The notes under the pieces are model-generated. The model worked only from the letters and a program-made list of their open reading frames with translations, searched no databases and had not been told where the DNA came from. A DNA stretch of 64,000 nucleotides from Bilabrum cf. latius. Its lineage: Eukaryota. Below are positions 44,327-64,000 of the stretch, piece after piece; position 1 is the stretch's first letter; every line of letters starts with the position of its first letter. A program made the translations under genes and the position numbers. The stretch spans positions 1,116,001 to 1,180,000 of the forward strand of contig OZ237743.1 of assembly GCA_965178125.1 (NCBI GenBank), given 5' to 3'.

Positions 44327-45871
44327 ATGCGTCAAACTACACCACGGGCATTCTTTATCCTTGCGTCGCTAGTTTATGCTGTATACTCGTAGACAGTGTG
44401 CAACATAGAACAATTCGGCGCTAAACCTGCCCCTTACAACTCGACTGCATCCATTGCGAAAGCCATTGGTTCCTGCTGCGCGAGCCAGACCTCCGGAGCC
44501 ACAATCCTTGTTCCAAGCAATGTTTACCTGAGCGGTCCATAGCAGATCTAGAGATGCCCAGGTATCACGCTACAGCTGGACGGGCAGATCCAGGCACCGG
44601 AAGCTATCGGTGATTGGCCTTCTATTGACATCAAGCAGTTCCTCCTCATCGATGATTCTCCGGGAGCGACGATCCGTGGCAGCGGCTCCATCAACGGAAG
44701 CGGTTTTGCGTGGTGGTAGATCCGCCGCAAGACGCCCTCGCACCCCGCGCCGTACCTGGTGCTCGTCGAGCACAGCGACGGCGCGTCTGTGCGGGATGTG
44801 CGCTTCATCGACAGCCCAAAGTTCCACCTTGTGGTTGAAAAGAGCAGCAACATCACAATCGACGGCATCTCCGTGTCTGCGCCCTTCGACTCCCCGAACA
44901 CGGATGCCATCGACCTGGGCGAGGTGACCGGCGCTGTGGTGCAGAACGCCGTTATCGCCAACGGAGACGACGGAGTGGCCATCAAGGCGTTCACTACGAA
45001 CGTGCTGGTGCAGAACTGTACGTTCTACGGGGGCCACGGCACCAGCATCGGTTCCCTCGGAGAGACATCTGACGGAGACCACGTCAGCGACATCACCTTC
45101 CGCAACCTGACCTTCCACCAGTCCTGGATCGGCACCAGGATCAAGACGTGGCAGGGGCGCACGGGGTACGTCACCAACATCACGTTCCAAGACGTGGTGA
45201 TGCACGACGTCCAGGTGTCCATCCGGATCAACCAGTACTACTGCCCGCACTCGCAGCACCCGGGCCAGTGCAAGAACTCCACCACGAAGGGACTCAACGT
45301 GACGGGCGTGCTGTTCAAGGGGCTCTCTGGGACGCAGACGTCGGGGCACGCCGGGGAGCTGTTGTGCTCGGACCCGGCCCCCTGCCACGGCATCACTCTC
45401 GAGGACGTGCACATCGAACCGGTGAGAGAGGGATAGGCCAGGTGCTGGCTTTGAATTTTTATTTCTCTTCTTAATTCCAGCGGCAGCGGCCCAGCGGCCC
45501 AGTGGCGCATACCAACACGTGAGGCAGGGAGCGTGGTGTGCCTCATGTGTTGGTATGCGCCACTGGGCCGCTGCCTAAACTGCCTGTGCAGCACTCAACG
45601 CTGCCAGTGGTGCTTGGGGTAGCAACCGCAGCGTATCTCCACACTGTTGCGCGTCCAAGATTCCTTCCCTTCTCCTACATCGCAGTCCAAGTCAGGTGGT
45701 GAGAATGAGTTTGAGTGCTGGGAGGTACACGGCGAGGAGTCTGATGTGTTCCCTGACGCTTCCGGTTGCATGTGGGAGGGCGCTACCACGGCCGAGCAAA
45801 GGGAAAGAGGGAGGGAGGGGCCCCGCTGGCAGGAGTTCGACTTGGAGTCTGTGGATCAAGGATCCGATTGA
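44327..45871 (+). CDS. Secreted GH28 polygalacturonase; exons 44327-45421 and 45686-45871; 4 in-frame TAG codons, all in the 5' part
   Basis: Signal peptide MRQTTPRAFFILASLVYAVYS then [TAG]TVCNIEQFGA. All four GH28 motifs NTD, GDD, GHG, RIKT are present. The last exon supplies FECWEVHG...VFP; ends TGA. Confidence 0.95.
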
Positions 45872-46433: not shown

Positions 46434-49400
46434 TCAGTACCCGCCACCAGAAGCAGCACCCCCATGGCCAGCAGTAGATCGGTTAGCACCCTCGCCAGCG
46501 GCGGGACCACCAGCCCTGCCGATACCACTGCCAGCACCGCCGGCCTGCCGCGGCAATGCGGGTGGTACCACACCCACGGCTGCAGGCGGACCACGCTGCC
46601 CTAGCAGGTCGCACGGCTACAGTGGGGGTAGCGAATTGAATTCCAGAATTTGCGACGCATATGCCCTCTGAGTTTGCAACATGTCAAGAGTGAGCCGGTG
46701 CCAGGCCAGTCCTGAGCAAACGTGCAAGCTCACCGCCTCTGGACGCATGCCCAGTCCCCAAGGAAATCCGCACTGGGTGCAGAAGTTTGCGTCGCAGTCT
46801 TTGCACGTCGCGCAGCGGGCAAAAGCATGCATTGCAACGATCCTGGCACAGTCAGGGTTGGCGCAGACGACACATCTGCCGCTCTGTAGTATCCCTGAGC
46901 TGTCCACACTGTCAGCGAGAGACTTCAGCTGGCTGCGCAGCTTTAGCGGTGAGCACGACTAGGTGTGAAGCTTATCTTTACACCGCAGGCACCAGGGCTC
47001 CTGGTCGCATTCTGTTCTCATGCATCGCCCCTCCGTCGGGAGCAGCTGCCCATGGCCAGTGCCGCACTGCGCCAGGGGCGGAAGCACGGTGATGCGGCCG
47101 CACTGTTCACTGGGACACCGCACCACGCGCTGCAGGTGTGGCTTTAAAGACATTTGCCTCTGACTAGCTACAAATTGTTGCGAAAGCCCAGGCAAGTCTC
47201 TAGACCCAAGGTCCCACACCAACCCGGCTGGGAGATGCAGAGTGCCCTGCCCACTGTGCCTCAACAGCGTGTCATACACGAGATTGACAAGTCGCTCCTG
47301 CCCCATGCAGCCACGAAGCACATCGAGAGGAACTAGCGAATTGCCAAGAATTGGCACCGGGATGGCGACGCAAGCGTCTGTTTCAACATTCCTGGCTCTA
47401 GCTCGGAGCCACGAGGAGATGCATGTCATCCGGCTGGGCTAGGGCATGCTGCTGTCGCTTCTCCTCAGTGAGCCGATCGGTTCCGGCCCGTCTGGCTCCA
47501 CGAGCGATACAACCGGTAGATCGCTGTTGGCCAGAACTAGCAGGTCCCGTCTCAAAGCTGGCACATGTTCCCCCGATAGCTCGCACTGCACCATGCCGTG
47601 CCCCTCATCCGGTTCAGACTCGCGGTCATGCCCGCCACCGTTTGCTTTCGACTCGGCCATGGCCTTGAGCACCTCCTGCATCCTAGCCTTGGCATCAGCG
47701 CAGGTGTCCGGATCTAAGCCAAGGAATGCAAGGGTAAGATGTGGGCGATACCGAATATCCACTGCTAGGGACTTGCGTGGATCAGCTGGCAGCGGTTTGG
47801 GAGAAGAAGCAACACCATCGTCATCGTCATCGTCATTGTCATCGTCATCGTCGCCGTCGTCGTCACCAAAGGCATCATCTCTAACCTGGAAATCCATCTC
47901 AGATTCCGTCGGATCTGCTCCGCTGGCAGAGCCACTGCCGCTACTCGGCGGCGGGCTGGCATCTGCTGTTCTAGACGGATACACCAGATCAATGATCTGC
48001 TGCGGCTTCAGCCGGCACACTCTTTCGAGGCAGCTGCGCGCCGTCCAGCTCTCAAAGTCAGTGGCAGAGATCGTTTGTTGGTGCGGCGGGTCGTGCCGTC
48101 GCAGAAAATCAACCAGATCCTACACAAGCTTGTCCACTTTGCTGCTGTCTCCCACAACTCTCACATGGGTCGTGGGATCGTCGGTCAGCACGGATGCACC
48201 GCTGGCCTGGTCCGTGTGGGATCGGGCCGCTCGTGGAAACAAGATACCAAGTCCATGCGTGCTCGCGTACTACAGCAGTTCTTTCCGAATGAATGGCGAG
48301 AGCAGTTTTGCGCGGGCCAGGCCAGGCGTCAGGCTCGTGTCCCCGCGCGACACAAGGCTAGCCAAGTTGGCGCCTCCGAGGCACTAACGAACCAGTTTGG
48401 CGATTCGATTGCACTTCACAGCGTCGCCAGTGTGAATTGGGTAGCGCAGCGAATCGTGGTACCCGTTATCAGGCAGCTTGCAATGGAAGTAGTGCCATAC
48501 TTGTCCGTTAGAACCGTTCCTCTGCAAGGCTTCAGCAAGTCGGTCCGAATAAAGGAGAAATGGAAAACTTTCTCCGCTCAACATGCTCCGAAAGGCCTTT
48601 CTCTCCTGCTTCGGCACTTCAAACGTCTGCGTGTGTCGTACGTGCACGCCAACGCCAGATCCCGCTAGCTTGGTGCAAAATGTGAGGTCCTAGGCTAAGA
48701 GAGAGTCGCGAAGGCGATCTGCCATCTCGGGGGAAGGAGCTTCGATGCACATGGTGACTACCCCGGTGTCTGCGTGGGGAGGTGTCCACGATATGCCAGC
48801 GCACGTGCCCCACTAGCCTTCCACGTGGTGCGCAAGTTGCTTCGTGTCCTCTGCTACTAACCTTGCCGCGTCATGATCTTCGCGCCATGCCTTTCTTGCA
48901 GGAGGCACCAGTGGCTCCGCTGTTTTGGCAGGGCGAGATGGTTGTGGCTCGGTCGCTTTTGAAGATCTCAGAGCCGAATTCCTCCACTTTCCTGGATGAG
49001 ATGGCTTTTTGGTTGGTTTCGGGGATCTCCGATACATAGCTATACTCCGTTCGATGAAATGCCGAACCGTGCCTTCACTGATCACATCGAGCTGCTTCCT
49101 GGGGTCTGGTATGTGTGTTACGACGATCGCATTGGCGATGTTCCCGTGCCTCCGTACCATGTACTTACCGTACTCCTTCGCAGCCCAAATGCTAATTGTA
49201 AACGGTGTCTCGTGACTCTGAATGTACTCTGCCAAGTCCCAATCATCCGAATCGTGACAGAGCACTTCGAATTCAAATCTATTTGGAGAGCTCGAGCCTG
49301 ACCCACCCGCGCTGCTGCCTTGAAGAGATAGTAGGGTAGCTGGATACGGAGTTCCGATGTACCCCCTTAGGTGGATTCCTGGACTCCCCAAAATAATGCA

Positions 49401-52400
49401 ACTGACAAGGTGCTCGATTGCGTCGCCCGGTGGTAGCAGCTAGCGGAGCACTTGCTCAATCGCGAGCTTCATCTCGTCAGGGTGCATGTTGCGAGGGAAC
49501 CCGGAAACTTGGAGGCCATTCCAAAACCTAACGAATACCAACCGCTCGCTGATTCCTTCCACGTTGTGCCCTTCCTTTCTTGTTAGCTCCCGCATGATTG
49601 GGTAGCACGAGATTGCAGGAAAACATGCGCACTATCCGTCGTGCTCCTTGCCAAGCCACGAGACGACCACCTCGGATCGAATGCCTGCAGCTGGCCCTTC
49701 ATCGCTGTCACTCCCAGCCAAATGAACCAGCTGGGACTGAAGATCATTGCCTGGAAGCAGGGCATCACTCCGTTCTGTAACGTACTCGTGGAATGCCCGC
49801 GCTCCCTCCGCACTGGTGGCGGTGAACACTGCCCTGCAAGTGGGCTGAAATGGGCTGTCCAGCTCGCGGTAGCACGGCACAGTAGCCGCCATGGTACGAT
49901 CAGCCGCTGCCAGCTCTGAGGATACTCCCGGGTGTGAGGAACCCACGTGAAGTTGGAAGGCATTCAGGAGCTGCATCCATGGCACCGGCGCCGGCCTGGC
50001 CTGCTGTACGCTACCGGCTACAGGGCCAGCGGCCCTGGGGGCATCCCCTCCTTCCAATTCAGCAGGAATACTGGCATCTACTTGTTTCAATGCAGCGGTT
50101 GCTGCTGTCACAATTACCTGCAGGCAGCTTGAGGTAGGTCGATCAACCGCTGCTTCTGCTGCTACGGGACTAGCCCGTTCAGCTGGATCCGGCAGACTGC
50201 GAGGCACCAGCTGCAGAGGCCTCGCCCCTGACCCGACCAGCACCAGAGCAACAGACCGCATGCGAGAGCGAACAGGCAGCTCAACGACGTCAATGGCCTG
50301 CTGGACCATATTGAAGTGACTCTGAACAATTGCCGTCAGCGTGGAGACAGCAGTGAGGCGACAGACCTCAGGCACCCAGATCCGAAGCGTGCCCAGTGGC
50401 ACCACGTCCTAGCTGCTGCAGTTCCACGGCGTTTGCACGATCATCTTGTGCATTTCGCCCTCGATCTATGAATGCTTGGTCAATCTTGCAGTCTCTGAGT
50501 AGTCTTGACCCAACAGGCTCTGGTAAGTGGCTGTATCGAGTCCAGTCACCTGCACCTGGATCATTGAGACCCCCGGCGGGATCGAATCCTCTGGCATTGA
50601 CCGGATTCTTGCCAAGTCCGCCTTGCTGACGACAGTGGCATTGCACAGCATGTAGCCGCTGTTGTCTTGCACAGACTCGAACACCACCAGGTCGGGTCTG
50701 GCTGCGTCCTCCTTCAGAGCAACACACGACTTGGGGTGGATCTAGGCCATCCCGATCCACTTGCCGGCCCGTGTGAGGCTGTAGCCCGCACTGGCCTCGT
50801 TATTCGCGGCGGCAAGGTTCTCTGCCAGCGCCCATCCGATGAAACAGGCAACGGCGCGCTCCAGGTCATAGCCAGTCTTCGCTTCAAACGCAAACCCTAG
50901 GTTGAACGAGAACCCTGGCACTGCTGTGGCGCTCACTGCGTCCCGTACAGCATCCGGGATGTGGCTGGACTCTGCATCGCCAGCTCCACCCGCAGCCACA
51001 TCACTGTGTTCCACATTGGGCGTGAATGTTGGTGAAGATGCAGGCGTCAGACTTGCCAAACAAGCATCGAAGCGAGCTATTTCCGCAGCGCCCATGGCTC
51101 GCAGACTGACAGCGTCATTGCCGGCCCACTCCAGACCGTGCTCTGCTAGGCGAAGCACGGTGTTCTCGCAAACAGTCCTAGTCTGACTAAAGAGCCTGTG
51201 TATATCCGAGGCATGCTCATTCCCGAATACAGTGCTGAGCAGCAGACGCTGCCGCTCCATGCCAGCAGCCTCGTCCAGGCCCACCCGCTGCCACGCCACA
51301 AACACTCGCAGCAGGGTCACGAGATCTCCGCGGCTGGATGCAAGCACGGCCATGCACGGCCTCCGAATGTATTGGATGTGTCGACCTGCACCTTGCCGAA
51401 GAAGAGCCACCAGCCACAGGACTGGGCCACTCGCCACGCCCAGCTCGTCGTCGGTCTGCATCGCCTTCGCTGCCAAAGCGCCTACCCACGGCTCGACGTC
51501 CAGCATCCGGACCACGCGGCCATTGGCTGTGATCTTGCCCACCAGCGGCGCGACTTCGCCTCCAGTCATCGTGCGCCTCAGAGATTCACCCTATTCATTG
51601 TCATCCTCAGCCAGACCGAGGGCTTTCAGCGTGGTCACGGCGGCTCGCATGTCGTCTCCACGCGGCCGATCCACCCATTGGAACTGGTTCAGCGAGATGT
51701 TGGCCGCCATCACGTCAAGCGCCATGCGAGCCATGTTGCACCGCATCACTCCGGGAGGTCGCTGGGCCTGCATCACGTTGAATGTGTCCGTTGAGTAGAG
51801 CCGGATGCACTTGCCCGGGCAGGTCCTCCCGGTCCTGCCCTCCCGCTGGATGGCAGCTGCCTGGGAGATGCGCTCGAGGCGGCGCTGCGAGATGCGCAGG
51901 TCAGGATCATAGGCGTCTTGCCAGTCGTACCCGCAATCAATCACGCATGCGAGTCGCTGAATGGTCACACTGGACTCTGCATCTCGTGTTGAGAAGTAGA
52001 CAGCAAGTCCGTTGAGCTGGCCCCGCATGACAAGGTCATTGAGATCAGCGAGATCTTCGGCTTGAATGAGCTCCTTGCTTTCCACGCCACTTCTTTGTCC
52101 GTGCTGCTGCTCTATCATTGCATCGAACAGCCGCCGAGTACGACCCACTTCTGCCGTTCCCGGCAGGAACACCAGCACGCACGAGTGCTTCTTGGCGCGC
52201 AGTAGCCCACTGGCCTCCCTGAAAGCCACGAGGGCTGCTGCATGCACCAGCCTCGTAGACAAGTCGCTGCTGTCTGGCCGCAGCCGGTGCTTCAACGAAT
52301 TCAGAGCGCGCGGCTTCGCCCTCCAGCCCAGAATGGAGAACTGCTGCGAGCCTGCTTTGCACTCGGTTGAGAACGCCCGCACCAGTCGCGTGACAGAATT

Positions 52401-54832
52401 CAGGCTCTCGTACTGCGTGGTTGTCGCGAAACTACGACCGTTCACAGAGATAGTCAGGTCGCTTCCAAAGAAGCTCTGCAATTTGTCCGTATCTAGCGTG
52501 GCTGATGCCACCAACACGGCAGGCCTGTAGCGCATTGCCGCATCAGCCGCACCAGCGGCCGTGGCAGCGGCCTCGTCTACTGGCCGGACTTTCAGGGCCT
52601 CCTTGAGCATGCCCAGGAGTGCATCGCACTGCACTCCCCGCTCGTGCACCTCATCCACCATGATCAAGCCGAAGTCAGACATAGGCGGCAGGTCCCCATC
52701 GACGCCACCCTCCTCTCCTCCGCTGGCTAGCAGCTTGCCTGCCATGTGCAGGGCAGTGCCCTCCGTGGTAAACACGATGACGGTCTCCTCAGACACGCTG
52801 ACTGTAGTCTGACCCTTGCTCTCCAGCACCAGCCCCACCCTGCCACCGACCTTGCCCTCGCCCATCTCCCTTGCCACACGGTCTGCGAGCATGCGGGCGG
52901 CACTGGCGCTCGGCTCCGTGACCAGCATGCGATTGCCCCTGTGCCTCGACACGATGCCGTACTGCTGCAGGATCTGGGGGATCTGGGTGGACTTGCCACT
53001 GCCGGTGCGGCCCGTGACCATGGCCACTGGATTGATCTATCCACCGCTCGTCCTTGCGCACATGATCTTGGAGCACGCATCAACGACCTCAGCCTCCTGG
53101 TCGAAGATGCGGAGGCTTCGCACGAAAGACCGAATCCTCTCCTGCAGTCGTCGCACGAGAGCTGCGACCAGGTGTACCCGCGCGTCTCGCGTGGGCACAG
53201 GAGGAGATACTCCGGCCCTGAGTGCCGTTTGCCTCGCCCTGATTTGCTTCTCGGAGAGCCCGACCGGCACACGCGCCACGTAATCCCAGGCAATGGCAGC
53301 ATCGTGGACGTCAGCAACCATCCGCTCGAACAACAAGATGGAACGGTACTTGGACTCATCCAGGAGCGCATCGACGTTGCGCCGCATCTGGTCGGCGAAC
53401 ATAACTGCGTCGCTGGACAGATCCTCGCCGTTTGCAGACACTTCCAGCGCGCATCTTGCCTCTTGGGACTGCCTCTAAATTCGGCCCAGAACGTTGGTCT
53501 TGGCTGCGTCGATCTCTCTGGAGACCATCTGATTGACCAGCTCGACCGATCGCAAAGCCAATACGGCGCGCGACCCACCAATAGCGCTCTATGCGCCCTG
53601 TCCGTCAGCCTCAAGTGCTAGTTCATCAGCGCCTGCACCTGACGCTGGTGATCTAAACACGCGGGCACTAGCAGGCGACTCTACTGCGTCAGCATCGGGC
53701 TCCTCCCTTTCGCAGTCGCAGGCCCAAGCACCATCCACGTCCCCGCCCTCGTCAGCTGCAAGGATCTCAGCACGGATCGAGTCGATCTTCGATTCCATCA
53801 ATTCCAAGATTCGTTCGTATTGTTCAGCGTCTGCTGGCTTCTGGTCAGCCGAACGAGCCGCGTCCTCACACCAGGCAGAGACGCCAATCTCGCCGTAGCC
53901 AATAGCGCTGCCCTTAACTTGCCTGTCCCGACTAGCGACCGCTGCGGCCAAAAACTCAGACACATCACAAGTCGGAAGCAGCAGTGATTCCTTCAGACCG
54001 TTGCGTTCAGCCAGCGATAGATATCGGCTTCCCAAGCTGCCACGCGTAAGGTGAGCAAGCTCGATGTTGTGAGGAGGGGCGAGGTTCGGCTCTCCGATCA
54101 GTCGAATTTCCAGCCTACGGCCAAACTCATGAGTCCGCTTGATCATATCGAACCGATGATGGATAGAGTTCTTGTTGGCCACGACTTCGACGTACAGACC
54201 GCGGTGTAGAGCGTCCTCGACCACATTCGGAAAGGTTTGCTTGGTGTCTCGCAGGTATCCGTGTCTATTTCCATCGCCTGCGCGGTGAATATGCCTCATC
54301 ATAGTCCAAACGTATGGGATGATCACGAAGGATGCATTCTAATCGTGAAAATACCAGCGCTCTTACCTGTGCAAAGGATGAGAGTGTATCGAGTCATGGA
54401 CCTCGGATCTCGAGCTTTTCCTTGCTACACTTGCTCTCGTGCATGTGATATAGCTTGCTCTAGCATTCCACTCATTTTCTCGGCTTTAGTTCTTGCGTCG
54501 GCATCGACTCGGACCTCGTGCCTCGTAGATTGCCTGGTCTCGACCTCAACAGAAGGACAACAGGGTAGTTGCTCCAATTGGCGTTTCAGAATCGCTGCCC
54601 TTTCATCATTGGATTCTGAGCACTAAAAATGAAAGCACTTGCCGCCATCGCTTTCGAATATCTCTCTCCCACGGAGGACTTCGTCGACGAAGCGGCTGGG
54701 ATCCAACTGATAGCCTGCTTGTTGCACACCAATCGAGATGTTGGACCAATCCACGACCACTGCGACCCTCTACTTGGTCACATCATCATAATCTCCTACA
54801 GAAATTTGTCTTCCGAGCTTGCTGAACGACAT
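46434..54832 (-). CDS. NYN(PIN-like) nuclease - DEAH/RHA RNA helicase - RBR-type Cys-rich (IBR/RING) fusion protein (~2770 aa); 2 exons (54832-54367, 54277-46434); 20 in-frame TAG codons
   Basis: NYN: VAVVVDWSNISIG, TLILCTGDGN (across the intron), ALHRGLYVEVVA. Helicase: GRTGSGKST, DEVH, SAT, FLPG, QREGRTGR, [TAG]IHPKS. C-terminus: RCPSEQC...C..WCLRCKDKLH..SC and CANPDC...CATCKDCDANFCTQC. Eleven track ORFs share one frame; ends TGA. Confidence 0.88.
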
Positions 54833-54878
54833 ACTCGGACTACGTAATGAGTCTCTTGCCACGAGAAAGGTGGCAAAT

Positions 54879-54952
54879 ATACCAGAATATTTTGTACTAG
54901 TAGGGTAAACTTTTTGAATTTCAAAAGTTTACCCTACAAAATATTCTGGTAT
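54879..54952. repeat. AT-rich imperfect palindrome (arms of about 33 bp) in the divergent intergenic gap
   Basis: Left arm ATACCAGAATATTTTGTA(CTAGTA)GGGTAAACTTTTTGAA. Reverse complement of the right arm is ATACCAGAATATTTTGTAGGGTAAACTTTTGAA. Confidence 0.9.
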
Positions 54953-54999
54953 CGGCGTGTTCCCCTACTCCAGAGCTAACTGACAAGGTGGCTGTGGAG

Positions 55000-55593
55000 A
55001 TGACTCGCCGAGAGTCATCGCTGCAGTCACGTGGTCTTCAGGCAGAGTGGGTCTCCGGTGACTGGGCCAGTCGAACTTCAGAGGAGAAGGGCAAGATAAG
55101 GAAGGCATGGGCGGACCATGGCCTACGTCTTGAACCTCACCCACAACCTCTGGAGCAGGACAGGCGTGGAGTCGCTGCTGCTGAGCGAACCATTCCCAAG
55201 ATGCGCTTAGCAATTGCCCGCTCTAGCGCCTCTGTTGGATTGGTACGGCTTGCGACACTGGTGGTTGATGAGCTGAGTGTAAAGGTCAGAACGTTTCCGT
55301 CCTGGACTGCCTGCAGGTGGTGGACTGGGGCCTCGGTGCGAGGCTGGACTGCGAGCTCATCGGATGACCTGTATGCTGCAATGCGAGCTCAGGATCGGAG
55401 GGGACATCGTGTGGCTCGCCCTAGAGGGCTCATGCACACTCTTGAGAGGATCTGGGCGCGTGAGATGGCGACTTCGCTTCGCTGTGTCTTGCGTGAAAGG
55501 GAGTAGCTACGTTGTACATGGACGTCCCGCTGGTGGCGGATGGCATGTGTCGACGGTCCGGCTGTCCTTCCCCCCCGCTACGGTAATAAATAA
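55000..55593 (+). pseudogene. Probable 5' part of a host gene truncated by the viral insertion
   Basis: GC-rich ORF head-to-head with the helicase gene (167-bp gap, like other host pairs). It reads through TAG 55504 and stops at TAA about 20 nt after the GC-to-AT shift. No recognisable domain. Confidence 0.4.
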
Positions 55594-55776
55594 ATTTATT
55601 CCCTTCGGTTAAGGAAACAAGTTTCAATAATTACGTTCAGTCAGAGCTAAAGCTCTTCCCTCTCTCCATTCCTTTTCTCGCTAGTCGCTCCAAAAGTCAA
55701 GGTGAGCCTCTTCATACTGCTACTTCATATAACTGCTTTATCCTTCTAATTATAGAAAATCAATTATATATAAAAC

Positions 55777-55903
55777 TCTATACGATGACCATATCCACAA
55801 ATTGCGTATTAGTATATGTATTATTTAGCAAAACGTGGATGTAGCCCTCTTGTGAAGGTGTTATGGGACTCTAGCCATTTTCTAGCCAAAAGTTCCATCA
55901 CTT
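55777..55903 (+). repeat. ~125-bp diverged direct repeat, copy 1 (non-coding)
   Basis: Shared blocks ctatacgatg..atatccacaaattgcgtat, tagcaaaacgtggatgtag, cctcttgtgaaggtg.tatgggac and agttccatcacttta recur at 58602-58730. Confidence 0.9.
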
Positions 55904-56104
55904 TATGGGACTCCATTATTCAACCTTCTAAACTACCTTCATTATACCCCCTTATCCTCGCTTATACCTTCACAAATGGAACAAACGCGCTACAGCAACT
56001 TGCTACACTCGTCATCGCAATACCACAAGCGCCACAGTTCAATACACCCCGGAACGATGACGCTGTAGGCCAGCTGATCACTTCACCAGCCTAAAACAAT
56101 AGAT

Positions 56105-56798
56105 ATGGACCGCAAGATTGAGGTAAGAATCCACAGGATAGATAATCAACATATGGAAATTGCTTTGCTGACCGTATCTGTATCTATCGCACCGGTTTTG
56201 CTCGCCAACGCAGCTCTTCAAGCCCGACCAACGCAAGAAAACGGGAACGGAAGCGCTACTCACCTTCCAGGACACCGTACAAACCGAGAAGAACCCCAAG
56301 AAGCTTTTGAAAGCGCATTCAAGGCTACTAGGGGACATGCACCTCGTTGAGCAAACCGGGAAGTCGCTGGAGAAGGCAATTCGGGAGGCGGTCGGAGCAT
56401 TGGAACCGACAGGCGTCAACTCAAAGGCTCTACTCGCTGTTATCGCTTCAATATTCCCCAAGGGGAGTCTTGACGATACCGATGCTGACTTTGACCGGAT
56501 TAATGGCGTGCTGAAGATTCTACATCACGGCAGAGATTACGCGGAGACGAGGCAGACACAGGCGTTCTTGGCACAGAAAATGGCTATCCTCAAGCCATTT
56601 CTTCCAGCATATGACATCCCATCGCTCGTTGGTGATGTTTTGGAGAAGAACCAGAAGAGGAAGCGCCGCCAAGACTTCAACAAGTAGCTTCTTCTGGAAT
56701 CTGGCATCGCCGCACCAGCCAAGCGGTTTCGCGGCAATGAGAATCTCATCCAGGACTATCCCCGGACGGCGGGTTCTTAGCCCAAGATGGAGAAGTGA
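56105..56798 (+). CDS. Uncharacterised ~200-aa protein in the element's left arm, with a predicted 91-nt spliceosomal intron (56123-56213) and 2 TAG codons
   Basis: ATG GAC CGC AAG ATT GAG|GTAAGA...CTGAC...ACGCAG|CTC TTC AAG joins in frame to track ORF 56307-56687; ends TGA at 56796. Confidence 0.6.
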
Positions 56799-56981
56799 GA
56801 AGGTTGAACAACCTTTTTTATTATAAATTGTCGTGTTTGTTATTGGTAGGGACACGGCTATATTGGAGTGGCCACGCTGTCGTGTGTAGCAGGGTACGAA
56901 CCGTGCTTCCAGCATTGACACGGGTGGAATCCCGCATTGAAGAGCATTTCAATGTTTCATTTGTGGTCTCAGTCAATCCAA

Positions 56982-57449
56982 TCAATCCACACGCATCACC
57001 ACGTATCCATTTTGCTCGCTCGTGCTCCCGTCGTAGCTGTTTAGAAAATGTCCCAGCCCGTCCTCATCTTTACAGGCCTGAATGAGGTCGTCCCAGCGCC
57101 CCTAAGCCACTATAAATGACTTAAGAAGGGCGCTTAAAGCCTCGCTGTGGTTCGCGTCAGCGGTAGCGGTGCTTATGATATCGGCATCGCAAGGCAGGAA
57201 GCGCGAGAGGAACGCAGGAACGAAGGAAGCAAGCGTCTCTGTAGCGTGGTCGTCCAAACGTTTGTCTGCTTCTTCTTCGGTGATAATCTCATAGGTCTGG
57301 ATTTCCTCGCCTAGCTTCACCGTGGCAGTCTCGCCGTCAAAAGATTGAAGAACCCTGTCCCACTCCTCGCCCACTGCTCCAATGTCTTCAATACCAGCAA
57401 TAAGCGCCTTCATTACTTCATCATTAACATCTGTAGAAACCCCGGCCAT
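56982..57449 (-). CDS. Acidic ~155-aa phage-like hypothetical protein; one TAG at 57104-57102
   Basis: YEIITEEEAD...FVPAFL...[TAG]GRWDDLIQACKDEDGLGHFLNSYDG resembles, from memory, an uncharacterised viral family with a DG-x-GHFL-x-x-YDG motif. That motif lies downstream of the TAG. Ends TGA. Confidence 0.7.
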
Positions 57450-57761
57450 TGTTTTATGTGTTTTATGTGTGGTCCAGATAAATTTTGGCGTAGCACAGGT
57501 TCCGAAGATGAAGATGAGAAGGTGGTAGACGATAGCCGATTCCAGTGGTAGCAGTGAGAAGTTCCAGCACGAGGAAGTGATGAAAATGTAGGGCAGGAGG
57601 GTATAAACTGACGGATGGAACCGCAAAGGAAGGAGAATTGGATTGAATAATTGAAGCCAGACCCATAACCCTAGCCTAAAGGCTAGGGATAACCCCCACA
57701 TAACCCCCCCACCTCTAAGCGTTTTTTTAAAACTCAAAAATTATAACTTAGTATTATAGAT

Positions 57762-58532
57762 ATGAACTTTAATAATTATGTCATTGAAAATCCCGTCCTA
57801 ATGAAGCAGATTTATAAGGCTACAGACCATATTACAGATAGTACGCAAAAAATTTTAGAGACCATTACTACGTATGTAGATTTAGGTGGAAGGTTTTCCA
57901 CGTCTAAATTAATTAATAAAAATATAGTTAGTGATATTAAAGAGAAAAAAGCCGTCAAAAAACCCAAGAAAGAAGAGAAACAGAAGATACAACACGATAA
58001 TAACGACCAGCTTGAAATTAACCAAACATACATTCTAGATAAATTTAATGACTATAAACCACAGAATAATAAAATTTATAATGATGTAGATGATTTACAA
58101 CCGCCAGAATTAATTAGATAGACCGCAATAGATGAAAAATTTACCGGTATGGAGCCTGACAGTGAAAGTGAAATAAACAGCGTTAGTACCGAACAAGACT
58201 AGATAGAAGCAGAAACTGATGATGAAATGATACCTGAGGAAGAGAAAAAAATAATAGGTGATTTAATTAAATTAGAGAATCAGGATTATAGGTATAAAGT
58301 GTCCGTAAATGGAAATGATGTATTTTTTGGTGAAATTAATTTACCCGATGTAGAGGCTCTTAAGAAATAGTTTAGCCCTCGTAAATTACAAATTATGATT
58401 TGTAAAATTAAAAGAAATTTTAATATTAATAATAGCGATGATATAAACAGCCCTGAGTTTTGGAATAGCCGTGTATATTTGACCCTTGATGTGAAGGCCG
58501 AACACGAAAAACTACAAGATATCTATAATTAA
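57762..58532 (+). CDS. Viral hypothetical protein (256 aa) with acidic central region; 3 TAG codons
   Basis: No TAA/TGA from ATG 57762 to TAA 58530 despite very AT-rich DNA. Confidence 0.75.
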
Positions 58533-58574
58533 AAGCCCCTACAACTTAATAAACGGGCTAGAATTTAATAAAAT

Positions 58575-58601
58575 ATTTTAATATAACCGCTATATTAAAA
58601 T
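58575..58601. terminator. Perfect 11-bp AT-rich hairpin downstream of the 57762-58532 gene (candidate 3'-end signal)
   Basis: ATTTTAATATA-ACCGC-TATATTAAAAT. Confidence 0.45.
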
Positions 58602-58730
58602 CTATACGATGGCTATATCCACAAATTGCGTATAATTATATAGTATTTCTAGCAAAACGTGGATGTAGGGCCTCTTGTGAAGGTGGTATGGGACCTTTAG
58701 ATAATTTTTAAAAATAGTTCCATCACTTTA
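58602..58730 (+). repeat. ~125-bp diverged direct repeat, copy 2 (upstream of the primase-helicase)
   Basis: Matches the blocks at 55777-55903. Confidence 0.9.
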
Positions 58731-58895
58731 GAAGGTGTTAAAATACACCATTCATATCACAATCTATTTTTTAGGGCTAAATGGCAAAAATCACCTTTTA
58801 CCTTCATTAATTATTATAGCCCCTTTAAGCCCTCTATAATTAAATATGGCGTTTAAAATAGTTTAAAAATATATTTCTAATAATATATATAGAAA

Positions 58896-61673
58896 ATGAA
58901 TAATAAAAACCTCGTTAGTTTCCCCATCAAGCACAATCAAAAAATACCTGATGTTAAAAGCTGGCGATATCTCACCAAACCCGAGCCTAAACGATTTAAT
59001 AATCAGAATATGGCTATTATCACCGGAGAAATTAATAATATAACCGTGTTTGATATTGATTCATATAAATGGAGCGATAAGAAGGAGCATTTATTCATCA
59101 AGAAATTTTCAGATGACTTTGTGAAGCGGTTCAACACATTCACGGTTAAAACAGCGGGTGGAGGGTATCATCTATATTTTAAATATGATTAGAATATATT
59201 AACTACCACCAATAGAGATATTGACGTTGATATTAGGAATGATGGGGCTTATGTAGTGGCACCACCAAGTGGCATAAATGGGTCAAAATACGAAGTTATT
59301 AATAATGTAGAAATAAAAAAATGTCCTAAGGAGCTTTATAAATTTTATGAAAAGTATATTATTAAATCCTCTAAGAAATCCAACGTAAAAGGGGCGAGTA
59401 AAAGGATATCAAAAATTGATAATCAAGATGTGAATAACTGTATGATGAAATTCATTTTAAATGGTAAAGACTGGTCAATTATATTAAATAGACTAGATAA
59501 GAAATATTTAAATAATTATAGTGATTGGTATAAAGCAACCCTAGCGAGTAAATATTTAGGATTTAAGAAGGAGTGGTAGGAGTGGAGCAAGAAGGGCAAT
59601 AAATACGACTACCACAAAAATAACAAGGTGTGGAACTCTATCCATTATTTTGATAAGTTAAAAACCTTTAATTTAGTTAATTCAATAATTTAGAATGATA
59701 AAAGTTTAAAGGCATTTGTGAAAGATAAGTATATTTCAAAGTGTTATTATCGTCCTTATGACGAGAATATTAACGGGTATACAGAAATTAATAAACCTAA
59801 ATTAGATGATATAGAGAAGCCCGAACGATTTTTTAAATATGAATATAATTATGTGGTAAAAAGTGATACAGGAACAGGTAAAACAACAGCATTTAAGAAA
59901 TACATTAAACAGGTTCAAACGCCGTTCTTATCCATTGTATCCCGTGTATGTTTAGGCACAGAGCAATACGAGAGCTTTTTAAATGAAGATATTAAATGTG
60001 AGTTCTACCAGAATAAAACTTTTGATTTTGGATAGTCTCTTATTATTACGCCGGAAAGTATCCCCCAAATTGTGAATTATGATTTTTCTAAATACATCGT
60101 ATTTTTGGATGAATTCAATAGCATTATAGAGCATATATTAAGTTCTACCACGATGAATAATAATAGGGTTCTTGTATTATTTATTATTTTAAAAATGATA
60201 AGGACGTGTAAATAGTTTATTGCTGTAGATGCTGACATATCCCAGATAGCGATGAAATTTTTAAAATGTGCTGGAGTAGAATTTAGCTTCATTAAGAATA
60301 AATATAAGCATTTTAAGGACGTAAAAGTATATTTTGAAAAAGACCAATAGAAATTTTACGATAAATTAAAAAGTGAAGATAAATTTATACTGGCGTGTGA
60401 TAGCAAGAAGAACGCAGATACATTTTATAAAATGTTATGTAAAGATGGTATAGAGGACGTTAAATTAATTACTAGTGATTTATTACCTGATGAGGATGTG
60501 AGCTTAGATAAATATGATAAAATTATATTTAGTCCTAAAGTCATTTACGGATTAGATAGTGTAATGGAGCGCCCAGTGTATGGATTATATAAAGGAAAAA
60601 CGATTCTACCGCCGTAGATGATGTAGCAACTGGCAAGATGTAGAAATCCCGAATATATGAATATATATTTTGAAGATGTAAAATCCATTTATCCAAGATA
60701 TGAGAATTTAAAGGAGGTATAGACGACCTTAAATATGGAAATTAACGCATAGACAGATTTATATACTAAATTAGAAAAATACGAAAAAAGGATAATGTAG
60801 GAGAATGATATTGACATTGATATTTTTGAGGGAGAAGATGATGAAGAGATAGCCCATAAAGCAATGATAGAGGCATCATATAAGGTTTATTTACCACTCA
60901 AGAAATTATATAATTTCAAATGTGATACATACGAAACAAATAAATATATTCATTTATAGCTTATTCTTAAAAACAGGGGTGCCGATGTATAGGTGGATAA
61001 GGAATTACCACAACGAATGAATAAATAGCAGATGAAAGAGGCGACAATGGAGATACTACAAGAAAAGATTGATTCATTTGATGTAGAGAACGACCATATA
61101 AAAAGAAGAATTGAAATTTTAGGGCTACCAGAGACAGCCATAACGGAGGATATTAAAATGTTATTAATTGATAATTACAAATTAATGAATTATTTTAATT
61201 ATGCTAATTTCAAGAGAAAAGATAAATATAAACTAATGACAGAATTAAAGGATAGAAAGGATTTTAAGGATGAGAAAGCAAAAAGTACAAAGAATAAAAT
61301 AATCATATTGTAGGAGATGTTATAGACGCTTAAATTGAATAAATTTGATTTAAGTTATACACGTAAAAATGAGAAATCCATTAAATATATAGAAATGGGT
61401 AAAAGATATGTAGAAGTAAGCGGGGCGAGATTATAGAAGCCAATAGAAACCGATAGTGAATTACACGGGGCAATAGTAAAATTATATAAGTAGTTATTTG
61501 GAAATATTAAAACCTCTTGGAGTATGGGAAATAAAAAGGATAAAAAGGATAGAGAATTAAGAATTAAATTCACCAAGGAGAAAGAATTATTTGATGAAGT
61601 TTATAAATATTAGTATCCCGAAATGAAGGACGTATACAAGGAATCCAACGAACGATTAGATTAGAATATTTAA
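58896..61673 (+). CDS. Viral primase-helicase (925 aa): Prim-Pol (AEP) + PriCT-2 + origin-binding-protein(UL9)-like SF2 helicase; 20 in-frame TAG codons
   Basis: ITGEINNITVFDID, TVKTAGGGYHLYFKY, DIRNDGAYVVAPPS; YSDWYKA...W[TAG]EWSK; KSDTGTGKT, LDEFNS, VDADIS, PP[TAG]MM[TAG]QLARCR. No TAA/TGA until TAA 61671. Confidence 0.93.
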
Positions 61674-61731
61674 TACCTTTTTTATGTGTTTAAAATAACT
61701 TAAACATTATATATTTATATAATATATAGTG

Positions 61732-62034
61732 ATGAGCGATATTTAGAGTTCAAGCAATACATAGGAACAACCAAAAATTAATTATATGTAGGAATATTAC
61801 AAAACAAACAAAGACAAATGGAATAAAAAATATTTAGCTAGAGGAAATGAAAAAGTTAAATGCGATGTGTGTGATTGTTATTATAGAAGGAAGGACAGAA
61901 CGAGACACGAACGAACGAAGAAACACCAAAAAAATCTCAAAGAACCAAAAAAGGATATACTAGAGGAATATATCAAGAAACTTAATCAAACCCTGCTTAA
62001 TAGCGGGATTAAACCACCGGAGATATCAATTTAA
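61732..62034 (+). CDS. Small viral C2H2-type zinc-finger protein (100 aa); 3 TAG codons; absent from the ORF track
   Basis: YM[TAG]EYYKTNKDK...EKVKCDVCDCYYRRKDRTRHERTKKH; ends TAA. Confidence 0.85.
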
Positions 62035-62038
62035 ATTT

Positions 62039-62073
62039 ATCTATTTATTTATTTTTTTTATAAATAAAAAGAT
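62039..62073. terminator. 14-bp hairpin (1 mismatch) filling the gap between convergent viral genes
   Basis: ATCTATTTATTTAT-T7-ATAAATAAAAAGAT between the stops at 62034 and 62077. Confidence 0.55.
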
Positions 62074-62076
62074 TTT

Positions 62077-62598
62077 TCAACCTTTAATAACCATCCAATT
62101 AGCCGACCAATCATTAGAGGAATTACCACCCGTTAAATGAATCGTAAATCCATCGGTTCCTGCTACTACGTGGGAAAATTCAACCGGCTCACTGGCGGGG
62201 GTGATTGTAGTAATAAAAACCAAATCACTAGAAGTCATACCCGGAACACTAGCAAATTCAGTAGCACCTCCACCACTCCAATTTACCCTTCCTTTATGCG
62301 CTACGGTGTTATTTGCTACTACTTCACCTTTTACGGTTAAATCACATTCGTGACCGTCTTCATCAAAACTCATAACTAAACCAGCAGATGCGGTATTGGC
62401 ACCGAATCGTAAAGCTTGACCCGAAGTGATGTAAGAAATACCCTTACTGTCAAGATGTAATCCTGCGTTGCTAACAACTACATCACTACTATTCACAACA
62501 GCATTTACATATAGACCACTACTATCTAATCTACCAGTTGCGACATTCTTACATTGAATAGATATATCATTAGGTTGCGATAATCTTGCTAAGCTCAT
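62077..62598 (-). CDS. Beta-rich, Gly/Ser/Thr-rich fibre-like/minor virion protein (173 aa); no TAG
   Basis: Intact ORF. The C-terminus SVPGMTSSDLVFIT...GTDGFTIHLT...ANWMVIKG resembles tail-fibre tip modules. Function inferred. Confidence 0.6.
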   Translation of the reverse strand: MSLARLSQPNDISIQCKNVATGRLDSSGLYVNAVVNSSDVVVSNAGLHLDSKGISYITSGQALRFGANTASAGLVMSFDEDGHECDLTVKGEVVANNTVAHKGRVNWSGGGATEFASVPGMTSSDLVFITTITPASEPVEFSHVVAGTDGFTIHLTGGNSSNDWSANWMVIKG

Positions 62599-62651
62599 TT
62601 TTTGTATATATAAATAAGAGAAAAACTAAAACTTATATCAAACCTATAATA

Positions 62652-63359
62652 TTAAACTTTCATTAATTTTTTAGCTCTATCTACGGCGTCCATAAAGCTA
62701 TCTTTTAATGTTGGTTCATTCCATAATACAAACCTAGACCAAAAAGCGGGGGATTTATAGTCTTTAAAGTCTTCATTTATTGAATGTCTTTTAATATAAT
62801 TTTTCTTTTTACGGTTTGCTTCCTTCTCTCCATCTTTATTATAATATTGTATAAAGTCCATATAAGGGGTACCATCATTCTTAATTCCACCAAAATGAAC
62901 AGTAAACAGAATATTATTACCTTGAACTACTTTAATCATATATTTTTTATTTGATTTAGTTGATTTATATAAATTAAAAACTGGTTTAGGTCTAAATGAT
63001 TTCACGTGTCCGTTATTAAATTTTTCCTTCATTGCTTCCTCTATTTCTTCCGTGTCTAATTCTCCAAAGGTTAAAGGGGTCTCTTTATTTATTCTTTTAG
63101 TGGGTCTATATATATCTCCTTTTTCCTAATATCCCTTTTCTCCCTTCTAATTCTTCCAATCCTCTAATTTCCACCTTCTTAAATTTTTCTATGCTTCATT
63201 TAATTTAATTTTATCATATGTCCCCCCTAGTTTTTTATAACGAGCAAAATATGCTAATGAACGATAAGCTGAAGGCTTTTTATACGTTCTATTTACTTTC
63301 TCAACTGCCTGACGCCATAATTTAGGACTATTAACATAATTAGGTATATTATCATTCAT
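62652..63359 (-). CDS. Two-domain viral protein (235 aa): conserved giant-virus/PLV-type basic domain fused to a Tlr6F-like domain; 3 TAG codons
   Basis: N-half YKKPSAYRS...YKKLGGTY, LRRWKLEDWKN[TAG]KGEKGY, YRPTKRINKETPLTFGEL. C-half KKYM...VHFG...YMDF...YIKRH...SPAFWSRFVLW (Tlr6F pattern). Ends TAA. Confidence 0.85.
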
Positions 63360-63367
63360 CTATATAA

Positions 63368-63526
63368 TTAATAAAATGATAATTTTTTAATTGCGTGAGC
63401 CGTTTTCTTTCTATATTCTTCATAGAGTCTTTTATTATTTGGATTCTTCATTAATTTATTTTTTACCTTCTTTAATGCCTTCTTAATAGCATACTAAACA
63501 AAGATATTACTAATAATATTAATCAT
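63368..63526 (-). CDS. Small basic viral ORF (52 aa); one TAG
   Basis: MINIISNIFV[TAG]YAIKKALKKVKNK...KKLSFY-TAA. Fills the gap between neighbours and has TATATA just upstream of the ATG. Confidence 0.45.
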
Positions 63527-63553
63527 ATATTATATAATTAATAAATATTTAAT

Positions 63554-64000
63554 TCAAAGCATTAAACCGCCTTTTTTTCCTTTCCTTGATATAATTTCTT
63601 CTTTTTCATTTACGACCATTAAATCATTCTATCCGTGGATAATTAATTTCTATCCTTCTTCATTAATCTATTCTTTTTTATATTCACCTAATTCTTTACC
63701 TACTTTAAAATTTAATCTTTTGTTAAATGTGATACTGTCGGTGTGAATTCGTATAATATGTTTAGCGTTGTTCTTATTCACTTTCTTCATCAATCGTTGT
63801 CTTCCATATGCCAGAATAAAAGGTTTCAATTTTCCCCAGCTATATTTAAAGGGTACTTTATGTTTCAAATGATAAATAAATTCTCCGTCATTATCCATTT
63901 CTACACGGTCAATATCAAATTTATCTATATTTATTTTTTTATCGTCTTTTGATGTAATTGTCTTTTTAGAGGAACTACATAATTTACCCCATAATGAATT
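63554..64000 (-). CDS. C-terminal part of a family-B (probably protein-primed-type) DNA polymerase; 5' part outside the window; 3 TAG codons
   Basis: NSLWGKL (motif B, NSxYG-like), KPFILAYGR, IRIHTDS (motif C variant), GKELGEYKKE; ends TGA. Confidence 0.8.

What the first reader, a model, noticed from the sequence alone, without database searches (positions are those of the whole stretch)
55570..64000. Endogenous Polinton-like virus/virophage-type element written in the host's recoded genetic code
Seen: an AT-rich island whose genes are intact only if TAG is sense. The 925-codon primase-helicase has 20 TAG and zero internal TAA/TGA. Random decay in AT-rich DNA would give mostly TAA. TAGs sit in motifs (PP*MM*QLARCR, W*EWSK, WKN*KG). 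Known: PolB, primase-helicase and Tlr6F are typical of PLVs, virophages and Polintons, which integrate as AT-rich islands in GC-rich protists. Inference: an intact eukaryotic DNA virus adapted to a UAG=Gln host. It could not be translated in standard-code hosts and would be invisible to standard gene calling.
Basis: partly seen in the sequence, partly recalled or inferred. Interest (0 to 1): 0.93.

Follow-up and report, generated by a model that had tools for sequence, protein, structure and literature searches.

The report
Virophage-like element written with TAG as glutamine
A small DNA virus of the virophage kind sits in the GC-rich genome of a protist and, like its host, reads the stop codon TAG as glutamine, so its genes look broken to standard software although they appear intact.

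Summary
From 57.7 kb to the window end the DNA is about 29% GC. It carries six tightly packed ORFs that together hold 32 in-frame TAG, no TAA and no TGA. They end in TAA (4) or TGA (2). TAG columns of the 925-codon primase-helicase score for glutamine only (+13.5 bits), and one column is Q in 120 of 120 homologues. Host ORFs also read through TAG.

The primase-helicase and a phi29-type protein-primed polymerase have their closest context-bearing relatives on 15-25 kb contigs. Those contigs encode Sputnik-type capsid and penton genes and, in one case, an rve-chromodomain integrase. None of 151 relatives is TAG-recoded.

The left breakpoint at 55,569/55,570 recurs in three read sets. Viral contigs have 7-17 times the depth of the host flank.

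A 1.7-kb host-like segment of about 50% GC, with an intron-like 91-nt piece, lies inside the element.

Capsid genes, integrase and the right end lie beyond the window and could not be checked.

Verdict: a recoded virophage-like element. It is a new variant of a known kind; endogenous viruses using a host's variant code are already reported.

The parts
54958..55569 (.). Fragment of a GC-rich host repeat that abuts the element. In other copies it continues with different GC-rich sequence.
   Evidence: contig depth is 460.5 against 38.6 for the neighbouring host contig in X3. There are loose ends before 54958 and behind 55569 in X3 and X7 (and behind 55569 in X9). An X7 contig of 3,261 nt runs on at both sides.
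55570..55991 (.). Left terminal non-coding region of the element (37-40% GC). It includes copy A (55767-55905) of a roughly 140-nt direct repeat.
   Evidence: Composition. Repeat families D1, D9 and D18, (85-96% identity to 58591-58730). Two X3 contigs enter at 55568 from other, unlike flanks. One X3 contig leaves at 55991 into different AT-rich sequence.
55992..57663 (.). Insertion or cargo of about 50% GC, present in only part of the element copies. Gene A is 56105-56798 (+), with a 91-nt GT..AG intron-like piece at 56123-56213, two TAG codons and a TGA stop. Gene B is 56985-57449 (-), 155 aa. Neither has a known family.
   Evidence: separate contigs 55962-57693 (X5) and 55863-57693 (X3) at depth 177.9 against 564 for the viral core. 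Joint 56120>56212 (GT..AG, cut +2) in an X7 contig. Pfam and PHROGs gave nothing above threshold.
57762..58532 (+). ORF of 256 codons. 3 TAG, TAA stop, no known family.
   Evidence: The start lies in TATAGATATG.
58591..58730 (.). Copy B of the roughly 140-nt direct repeat, 166 nt upstream of the primase-helicase start.
   Evidence: D1, D9, D18.
58896..61673 (+). Primase-helicase of 925 aa: PrimPol, PriCT-2 and an SF2-type helicase. 20 TAG read as Gln, TAA stop.
   Evidence: Pfam PF09250 7.2e-16, PF08707 3.2e-06, ResIII 0.012. 313 homologues; the best is 49% identical over 99% of the query. TAG columns score for Gln.
61732..62034 (+). ORF of 100 codons. 3 TAG, TAA stop. Cys/His-rich, with a weak U1 zinc-finger match.
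   Evidence: (zf-U1 0.018, below cut-off). Weak relatives in related loci.
62077..62598 (-). ORF of 173 codons. 40% GC, no TAG, TGA stop. Predicted all-beta, function unknown.
   Evidence: The single-sequence model is useless (pLDDT 38.6).
62652..63359 (-). ORF of 235 codons. DUF5872 family, shared with giant viruses. 3 TAG, TAA stop.
   Evidence: Pfam PF19197 8e-21, PF19058 0.0011. Relatives in 8 of 71 related viral loci by tblastn.
63554..64000 (-). C-terminal 148 codons of a protein-primed family B DNA polymerase, cut by the window end. 3 TAG, TGA stop.
   Evidence: 100% identical to the end of the 499-aa protein P0123. A family profile hits phi29 polymerase at 7.2e-08 with motifs A, B and C aligned. 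The P0123 model (pLDDT 82) has phi29 polymerase as its top 9 hits, E about 5e-14. Homologue P0130 hits PF03175 at 4.6e-15.

Best explanation
Window 55570-64000 is the left 8.4 kb of a virophage-type DNA virus element (mavirus-like in gene content: primase-helicase plus protein-primed PolB). It lies in the nuclear DNA of a GC-rich eukaryote whose code reads UAG as a sense codon.

Shown:
- The viral genes are open only if TAG is sense.
- TAG stands where relatives have glutamine. TAA and TGA are the viral stops.
- Host ORFs also carry in-frame TAG but no TAA or TGA.
- The closest relatives of both replication genes that can be seen in context sit on virophage contigs, and those relatives use the standard code.

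Inferred:
- The element is translated by the host's ribosomes with the host's UAG decoding (a Gln tRNA reading UAG and a release factor that ignores UAG).
- It integrated into a host repeat and multiplied to several near-identical copies.
- Like mavirus in Cafeteria, it stays silent until a giant virus infects the cell. It is then transcribed from its own short AT-rich promoters, copies its genome with the primase-helicase and protein-primed polymerase, and is packaged.
- Because 47% of its Gln codons are TAG, it could not be expressed in a standard-code cell. Any helper giant virus must likewise tolerate UAG = Gln.
For: Code.
- 32 TAG, 0 TAA and 0 TGA in 1,838 viral codons. Stops are TAA x4 and TGA x2. 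TAG is 32 of 68 Gln codons.
- Over 17 usable TAG columns of a 121-sequence alignment, Gln is the only residue with a positive log-odds score (+13.5 bits; next is Lys at -10.2; still +9.4 without the three closest homologues). Control codons returned their own residues.
- Column 577 is Q in 120 of 120 homologues.

Host.
- Eight long ORFs (11,384 codons) hold 66 TAG in frame. Their two off-frames hold 159 TAG, 54 TAA and 363 TGA. All of them end in TGA.
- DEAD, Helicase_C and IBR domains lie in one 2,630-codon frame that has 17 TAG.
- A single alignment to plant polygalacturonases (6e-48) runs through three TAG positions.

Identity.
- Pfam finds PrimPol and PriCT-2.
- The polymerase has the phi29 fold and motifs.
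- The closest IMG/VR relative, L001, encodes a Sputnik MCP (7.8e-34) and penton.
- The closest metagenome relative with context, L083 (45% identity), encodes penton, Sputnik MCP, a P-loop ATPase, an rve-chromodomain integrase and GIY-YIG.
- The best relative of the polymerase, L073, carries the same MCP family.

Copies.
- Viral contigs of X3 have depth 448-651 against 38.6 for the host flank. In X5 the figures are 13.5-16.9 against 2.
- The main X3 contig differs from the window at 7 of 2,976 bases.
- 4 of the 5 listed differences are synonymous.
Against: - No capsid, penton, packaging ATPase, protease or integrase gene lies in the window, so the virophage label rests on replication genes, which are known to be exchanged among virophages, PLVs and Polintons (Yutin 2015, passages read).
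- The 71 viral loci found with the primase-helicase do not carry this polymerase, so the gene combination is unlike that of the nearest relatives.
- In L083 the capsid genes lie upstream of the primase-helicase, where the window has only a terminus, cargo and one unknown ORF.
- No listed contig bridges 55,569/55,570.
- The tool warns that contig depth is not a copy number.
- TAG positions in host proteins did not settle the residue. Against P0121 they aligned with Q, L, E, S, E, A, L and gaps.
- Dependence on a giant virus is wholly inferred.
Confidence: 0.75

Rival explanations
1. It is a Polinton-like virus or a Polinton/Maverick rather than a virophage. The unseen capsid module would be of the PgVV/PLV or polintovirus type, and replication may not need a giant virus.
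For: - A protein-primed PolB is the Polinton signature.
- Most of the more distant primase-helicase relatives (for example L008) showed no Sputnik-type MCP by Pfam. The MCP search found that family in only 6 of 71 loci at first and in 20 loci after widening.
- Replication genes move between these groups.
Against: The nearest relatives of both genes that can be seen in context (L001-L005, L007, L083, L142 for the primase-helicase; L073 for PolB) carry the Sputnik-type MCP and penton.
Confidence: 0.15
2. The viral DNA is not integrated here. The window joins a host contig to DNA of a free or episomal virus from the same culture (assembly chimera).
For: - Both sides of the junction are repeats, and no bridging contig was listed.
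- Viral depth is 7-17 times the host depth, and the ratio differs between X3 and X5.
- Identical polymerase protein occurs on 12.8-kb contigs of other assemblies.
Against: - The same breakpoint (55569) is seen in contigs of three runs. Two X3 contigs enter the element's end from other flanks, as expected of several insertions.
- A host-like segment with an intron-like piece, in-frame TAG and a TGA stop lies inside the element.
- Close relatives encode an rve-chromodomain integrase.
- Even if this rival is true, the recoding result stands.
Confidence: 0.08
3. The TAGs are nonsense mutations in a decaying endogenous viral fossil.
For: Endogenous viral elements often look interrupted by stops (Bellas 2023, passages read).
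Against: - 32 TAG against 0 TAA/TGA, where off-frames show TAA well above TAG.
- TAG sits at an invariant Gln column.
- The protein aligns full-length to 933-aa relatives.
- Differences between copies are mostly synonymous.
Confidence: 0.01
4. The virus uses a code of its own, through a suppressor tRNA that it or its helper virus supplies, as TAG-recoded phages do, and not the host's code.
For: - Recoded crAss-like phages use TAG = Gln in standard-code hosts (PMC9523058, abstract in listing).
- One virophage clade carries an ochre-reading tRNA (PMC6905037, passage read).
Against: - No tRNA gene in the window.
- Host ORFs themselves contain 66 in-frame TAG.
Confidence: 0.02

Closest known systems
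Mavirus and the endogenous mavirus-like elements (EMALEs) of Cafeteria burkhardae
   Same: A small dsDNA element in a protist nuclear genome, AT-rich against a GC-rich host, in several near-identical copies and lying next to host repeats. It has a helicase-type replication protein plus a protein-primed PolB. Close relatives carry an rve integrase. The comparison with mavirus gene content is recalled; of the Hackl et al. paper only the listing abstract was seen.
   Different: Uses TAG as Gln. Capsid module, integrase and TIRs were not seen. The helicase is fused to PrimPol/PriCT-2 and is SF2-like. It carries a host-like cargo segment of about 50% GC.
Metagenomic virophages with Sputnik-type capsid (L001, L083, L142; lake and other metagenomes)
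   Same: Primase-helicase 37-50% identical and of the same length and domain order.
   Different: They use the standard code. Their primase-helicase frames hold no in-frame TAG, and in L083 a TAG ends the penton gene. They lack this PolB.
Endogenous Maverick-Polinton-like elements of Streblomastix strix, and Tlr elements of Tetrahymena
   Same: Endogenous viruses of this realm written in the host's variant code. Bellas et al. 2023 state that S. strix EVEs use the host table (passage read). For Tlr this is recalled.
   Different: Those hosts read both TAA and TAG as Gln. Here only TAG is sense, and TAA ends 4 of 6 viral ORFs. Those elements are of other capsid lineages.
TAG-recoded (code 15) crAss-like phages
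   Same: The same codon change, TAG to Gln, in a virus.
   Different: Those are bacterial viruses whose code differs from the host's. Here host and virus agree.

Membership tests
Virophages (Sputnik/mavirus group) | Virophage-type double jelly-roll major capsid protein | not testable with these tools
   None in 55570-64000. The rest of the element is outside the window and no genome is held. An exact 39-mer of the element is absent from IMG/VR.
Virophages (Sputnik/mavirus group) | Penton protein, FtsK/HerA-type packaging ATPase and cysteine protease | not testable with these tools
   Not in the window. Relatives L001 and L083 have the penton, and L083 has a P-loop ATPase.
Virophages (Sputnik/mavirus group) | Replication genes nearest to those of capsid-defined virophages (supportive, not defining) | tested here: met
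   L001-L005 and L007 (six of the seven best IMG/VR loci), L083 and L142 for the primase-helicase, and L073 for PolB, all carry the Sputnik-type MCP.
Virophages (Sputnik/mavirus group) | Replication depends on a co-infecting giant virus | not testable with these tools
   Needs infection experiments.
Polintons/Mavericks | Protein-primed family B DNA polymerase | tested here: met
   Profile against PDB hits phi29 polymerase at 7.2e-08 with motifs A, B and C aligned. Fold search gives phi29 as the top 9 hits, E about 5e-14. 1 of 10 homologues tested hits PF03175. Only the last 148 aa are in the window.
Polintons/Mavericks | rve-type integrase and terminal inverted repeats | not testable with these tools
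   No integrase in the window. The right end is outside it.
Polinton-like viruses (PgVV/TVS groups) | PgVV-like MCP; Tlr6F-like small protein | not tested
MCP not in the window. No Tlr6F sequence or profile was available to compare.
Genetic code with UAG = Gln only (NCBI table 15 pattern) | TAG sense and read as Gln | tested here: met
   for the viral gene. For host genes TAG is sense, but the residue was not settled.
Genetic code with UAG = Gln only (NCBI table 15 pattern) | TAA and TGA remain stops | tested here: met
   Virus: 0 in-frame TAA/TGA in 1,838 AT-rich codons, and ORFs end in TAA x4 and TGA x2. The primase-helicase ends where its relatives end. Host: 66 TAG but 0 TAA in frame, although CAA:CAG is 118:321.

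The most novel reading that the evidence does not exclude
This is a currently active virophage lineage that has crossed a genetic-code barrier. Its standard-code relatives are 45-50% identical in the primase-helicase. It now depends on UAG = Gln for almost half of its glutamines and exists as many near-identical copies under purifying selection. It has picked up host-like, intron-bearing genes. That would imply an undiscovered giant virus that also works under UAG = Gln, and a virus-virophage-host triad sealed off from standard-code hosts.
Probability: 0.35. Interest if true: 0.8.

Novelty: new variant of a known kind. Interest (0 to 1): 0.62.

Why it matters
Code changes are thought to shield cells from viruses. 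Here a virus of the virophage world has followed its host into a rare code in which only UAG is reassigned, while 151 relatives examined have not. This gives three things:
1. A dated natural experiment on how a DNA virus adapts to a stop-codon reassignment. TAG is already its commonest Gln codon.
2. A marker for finding the host's giant virus.
3. A practical warning that standard gene calling misses such elements.

It also adds a GC-rich, intron-bearing eukaryote to the few lineages where UAG and UAA have different meanings.

Tried and rejected
- Earlier findings and whole genome. No whole genome is held, so the downstream capsid genes, right terminus, host tRNAs and eRF1 could not be examined.
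- Single-protein IMG/VR scan. It found nothing; an alignment was needed.
- Host residue at TAG. A search with a 1,148-aa host protein gave only 2 homologues, and its TAG positions aligned with mixed residues. The GH28 and DEAH alignments put TAG at unconserved columns.
- Host lineage. A PCMT query gave no useful taxon. The lineage is left open.
- ORF counts under different stop sets. Dropped as evidence, because opening TGA lengthens ORFs even more in GC-rich DNA.
- One row (GH28) was out of frame and was dropped.
- orf173 model. pLDDT 38.6, not searched.
- Pfam and PHROGs gave nothing for orf256, orf173 or the two cargo proteins.
- Rfam and tRNA scans of the window were empty.
- Mimivirus-type AAAATTGA promoter. 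Only 2 sites, neither at a gene start.
- PolB alignment A2 was too diverse for a scan. The smaller A3 found only distant relatives.
- Exact 39-mer of the element is not in IMG/VR.
- Expression. No RNA holder was listed.
- Run X7 (kind uncertain) had no contig laid on 57601-64000 although it covers the flank, the left terminal region and the cargo.
- Supplements of the papers were closed. Bellas 2023, Paez-Espino 2019 and the cryptophyte PLV paper may list codes or elements in supplements that I could not see.


Full report
**What is there.**
The window is about 55-72% GC up to 54 kb. GC falls to 37-40% at 55600-56000, rises to 45-57% at 56200-57400, and from about 57.7 kb to the end is 21-41%, mostly near 29%. 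With TAG read as sense, the AT-rich part holds six closely packed ORFs:

| ORF | Strand | Size | Call |
|---|---|---|---|
| 57762-58532 | + | 256 aa | unknown |
| 58896-61673 | + | 925 aa | primase-helicase |
| 61732-62034 | + | 100 aa | Cys/His-rich |
| 62077-62598 | - | 173 aa | unknown |
| 62652-63359 | - | 235 aa | DUF5872 |
| 63554-64000 | - | last 148 aa | polymerase, cut by the window end |

**The observation.**
The primase-helicase frame has 20 TAG, no TAA and no TGA, and ends in TAA. All six ORFs together hold 32 TAG, 0 TAA and 0 TGA in 1,838 codons. They end in TAA four times and TGA twice. The two off-frames of the primase-helicase gene hold 42 TAG, 126 TAA and 69 TGA.

**What TAG means.**
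I aligned the protein, with X at TAG, to the 120 listed homologues of 313 found.
- Column 577 (PPxMMxQLARCR) is Q in 120 of 120.
- Column 440 is Q in 65 of 120.
- Summed over the 17 TAG columns with enough residues, Gln is the only amino acid with a positive log-odds score: +13.5 bits, next Lys at -10.2. It is still +9.4 after removing the three closest homologues, which might themselves be recoded.
- The same scoring returned the right residue for CAA, CAG, GAA, AAA, TTA and TAT columns.
- TAG is the commonest Gln codon of the element (32, against 25 CAA and 11 CAG).
- TAA is not sense. It is absent in frame in this AT-rich DNA, and it ends the primase-helicase where its 933-aa relative ends (99% query cover).

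**The host's code.**
- Eight long host ORFs (11,384 codons) hold 66 in-frame TAG. Their off-frames hold 159 TAG, 54 TAA and 363 TGA. All of them end in TGA. Zero in-frame TAA/TGA is by construction of these ORFs. The point is their length against an off-frame TGA density of about 2.5% per codon.
- One 2,630-codon frame with 17 TAG carries DEAD, Helicase_C and IBR domains.
- A single alignment of the GH28 region to plant polygalacturonases (6e-48) runs through three TAG positions.
- With CAA:CAG at 118:321, 66 TAG and no TAA argues that TAA is not a Gln codon in the host either.
- Which residue the host inserts at TAG could not be settled from the few conserved host genes. Gln is inferred from the viral gene, which must use the host's ribosomes. 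No tRNA gene lies in the window.

**What the element is.**
- The 925-aa protein has PrimPol (7.2e-16) and PriCT-2 (3.2e-06) domains and an SF2-like helicase. ResIII/DEAD matches are weak here and are recorded for homologues.
- The cut ORF at the window end is 100% identical to the end of a 499-aa protein, P0123. That protein occurs on 12.8-kb contigs of other assemblies.
- P0123 has 880 relatives, mostly about 600 aa. One of ten relatives tested hits Pfam DNA_pol_B_2.
- A profile of 30 members hits phi29 polymerase (7.2e-08) with motifs A, B and C aligned.
- An AlphaFold model (pLDDT 82) has phi29 polymerase as its nine best PDB matches, at about 5e-14.
- DUF5872 and DUF5754 are families also annotated in a giant virus of a haptophyte (table passage read).

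**Relatives in context.**
- An alignment-based scan of IMG/VR found 71 loci with the primase-helicase, on contigs of 5-26 kb. The closest, L001, encodes a Sputnik-type MCP (PF21915 7.8e-34, PF22031 5.8e-17) and penton.
- That MCP family is present in L001-L005 and L007, and after widening in 20 loci. More distant loci such as L008 gave no Pfam capsid hit.
- The metagenome scan kept 80 loci of 177. L083 is 45% identical in the primase-helicase. It encodes penton, Sputnik-type MCP, a P-loop ATPase, an rve integrase with chromodomain, and a GIY-YIG protein. It is therefore an integrating virophage.
- The best IMG/VR relative of the polymerase, L073, carries the same MCP family and two pentons.
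- The loci found with the primase-helicase lack this polymerase, so the window's combination is its own.

**Codes of the relatives.**
In 151 loci I extended the homologous frame to the next TAA or TGA. 115 held no TAG, 29 held one and 7 held two or three, counting bounding stops. The window's frame holds 21. In L083 the 1,017-codon frame has no TAG, and a TAG ends the penton gene just before the MCP. The free relatives therefore use the standard code.

**Boundaries and copies.**
- Contigs of four runs were laid on 52001-64000. Those holding 0.8 or more of the words come from two studies, one of which may be the window's own source.
- The 612 bases before the element (54958-55569) belong to a host repeat (contig depth 460 against 38.6 for the host contig in X3). 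In X3, X7 and X9 contigs this repeat continues behind 55569 with different GC-rich sequence.
- Two X3 contigs reach 55568 from other flanks.
- No listed contig bridges the junction. Both sides are repeats, so short-read contigs would break there anyway.
- Viral contigs have depth 448-651 in X3 and 13.5-16.9 in X5, where the host is at 2. The tool warns that depth is not a copy number. I read these figures as several copies or extrachromosomal DNA.
- The main X3 contig differs from the window at 7 of 2,976 bases. 4 of the 5 listed differences are synonymous.

**The GC-richer segment.**
- 55992-57663 forms its own contig (55962-57693 in X5) at about a third of the viral depth. An X3 contig leaves at 55991 into other AT-rich sequence. 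The segment therefore seems present in only part of the copies.
- It lies between two copies of a roughly 140-nt repeat (55767-55905 and 58591-58730, 85-96% identity).
- It holds two ORFs of no known family.
- Gene A starts at 56105 and has a 91-nt GT..AG piece (56123-56213) that an X7 contig lacks. It continues in frame to a TGA at 56796-56798 and contains two TAG. The kind of run X7 is uncertain, so the joined form may be RNA or an intron-less DNA copy.
- These are host-like features inside a viral element.

**How it most likely works.**
Shown: the code, the gene identities, and the kinship with virophages.

Inferred: integration by an integrase encoded beyond the window, as in L083. Silence in the nucleus. 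Activation by a giant virus. Transcription from short AT-rich promoters. Four of five complete viral ORFs start at TATAG(N0-4)ATG; the pattern gives 10 matches in the window against 3.8 expected. A 42-nt motif is shared upstream of two genes (D4). Replication would then use the primase-helicase and protein-primed polymerase.

**Comparison with what is known.**
- Bellas et al. 2023 report that endogenous viruses of Streblomastix strix use that host's TAA/TAG = Gln table (passage read).
- Paez-Espino et al. 2019 saw an ochre-reading tRNA in one virophage clade and suggested recoded hosts (passage read).
- A 2026 catalogue reports giant-virus bins that annotate better under variant codes (passages read).
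- UAG-only reassignments are described for a fornicate, a rhizarian and some ciliates (titles and abstract beginnings only).
- My searches for virophage with 'stop codon reassignment', 'alternative genetic code', and Polinton-like with 'genetic code' found no virophage written with TAG = Gln. Supplements were closed.
- The principle is therefore known. This case is a new variant: a virophage-type element, UAG only, in a GC-rich host.

**Limits.**
The capsid module, integrase, right end and host translation genes are outside the window. Integration is not proven by a bridging read. The host lineage was not determined. The Tlr6F label was not tested.

Noticed in passing
window 1-55569 (e.g. 46437-54326 -, 31894-40638 -, 43301-45451 +): The host itself seems to use a rare code. 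TAG is sense (66 in frame in eight long ORFs) and TAA is never in frame. All eight long ORFs scored, and the GH28 ORF (43301-45451), end in TGA. The GH28 is closest to plant polygalacturonases. The host lineage is not determined.
   Followed up: partly
window 55992-57663: A 1.7-kb segment of about 50% GC inside the viral element, present in only part of the copies. It holds two ORFs of unknown family. One has a 91-nt GT..AG piece that is missing in a contig of run X7. It could be host genes captured by the virus or a nested mobile element.
   Followed up: partly
window 54958-55569: The host flank next to the element is itself a fragment of a repeat (contig depth about 12 times the neighbouring host contig). 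It is part of a unit of at least 3.3 kb in run X7. No Pfam family was found for the ORF across it.
   Followed up: partly
window 57755-57764, 58888-58898, 61725-61734, 63357-63364: Four of five complete viral ORFs start within TATAG(N0-4)ATG, and cargo gene A starts at AATAGATATG. A 42-nt motif (58851-58892 and 61688-61729) precedes two genes. These are possible promoter or initiator signals.
   Followed up: partly
window 62029-62072: An AT-rich palindrome lies between the convergent ORFs 61732-62034 (+) and 62077-62598 (-). It looks like a hairpin terminator. The read tool also skipped this stretch as a repeat.
   Followed up: no
window 62416-62514 and 55703-55849: Variant copies in the runs lack 99 nt inside the 173-codon ORF (X5; the length is a multiple of three) and about 147 nt of the left terminal region (X3, X5).
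   Followed up: no
protein P0123 and alignment A2: The polymerase is short (499 aa against about 600 in relatives). The family has a conserved N-terminal region (consensus NDCLY ... NGHY) in which this protein keeps the Cys but not the His-Tyr. No function is assigned.
   Followed up: no
L083 6076-7896: The closest relative seen in context encodes an rve integrase fused to a chromodomain, which suggests chromatin-targeted integration in that virophage group.
   Followed up: no
window 54879-54952: A perfect 18-nt inverted repeat with a 38-nt spacer lies in the host flank just before the repeat fragment.
   Followed up: no
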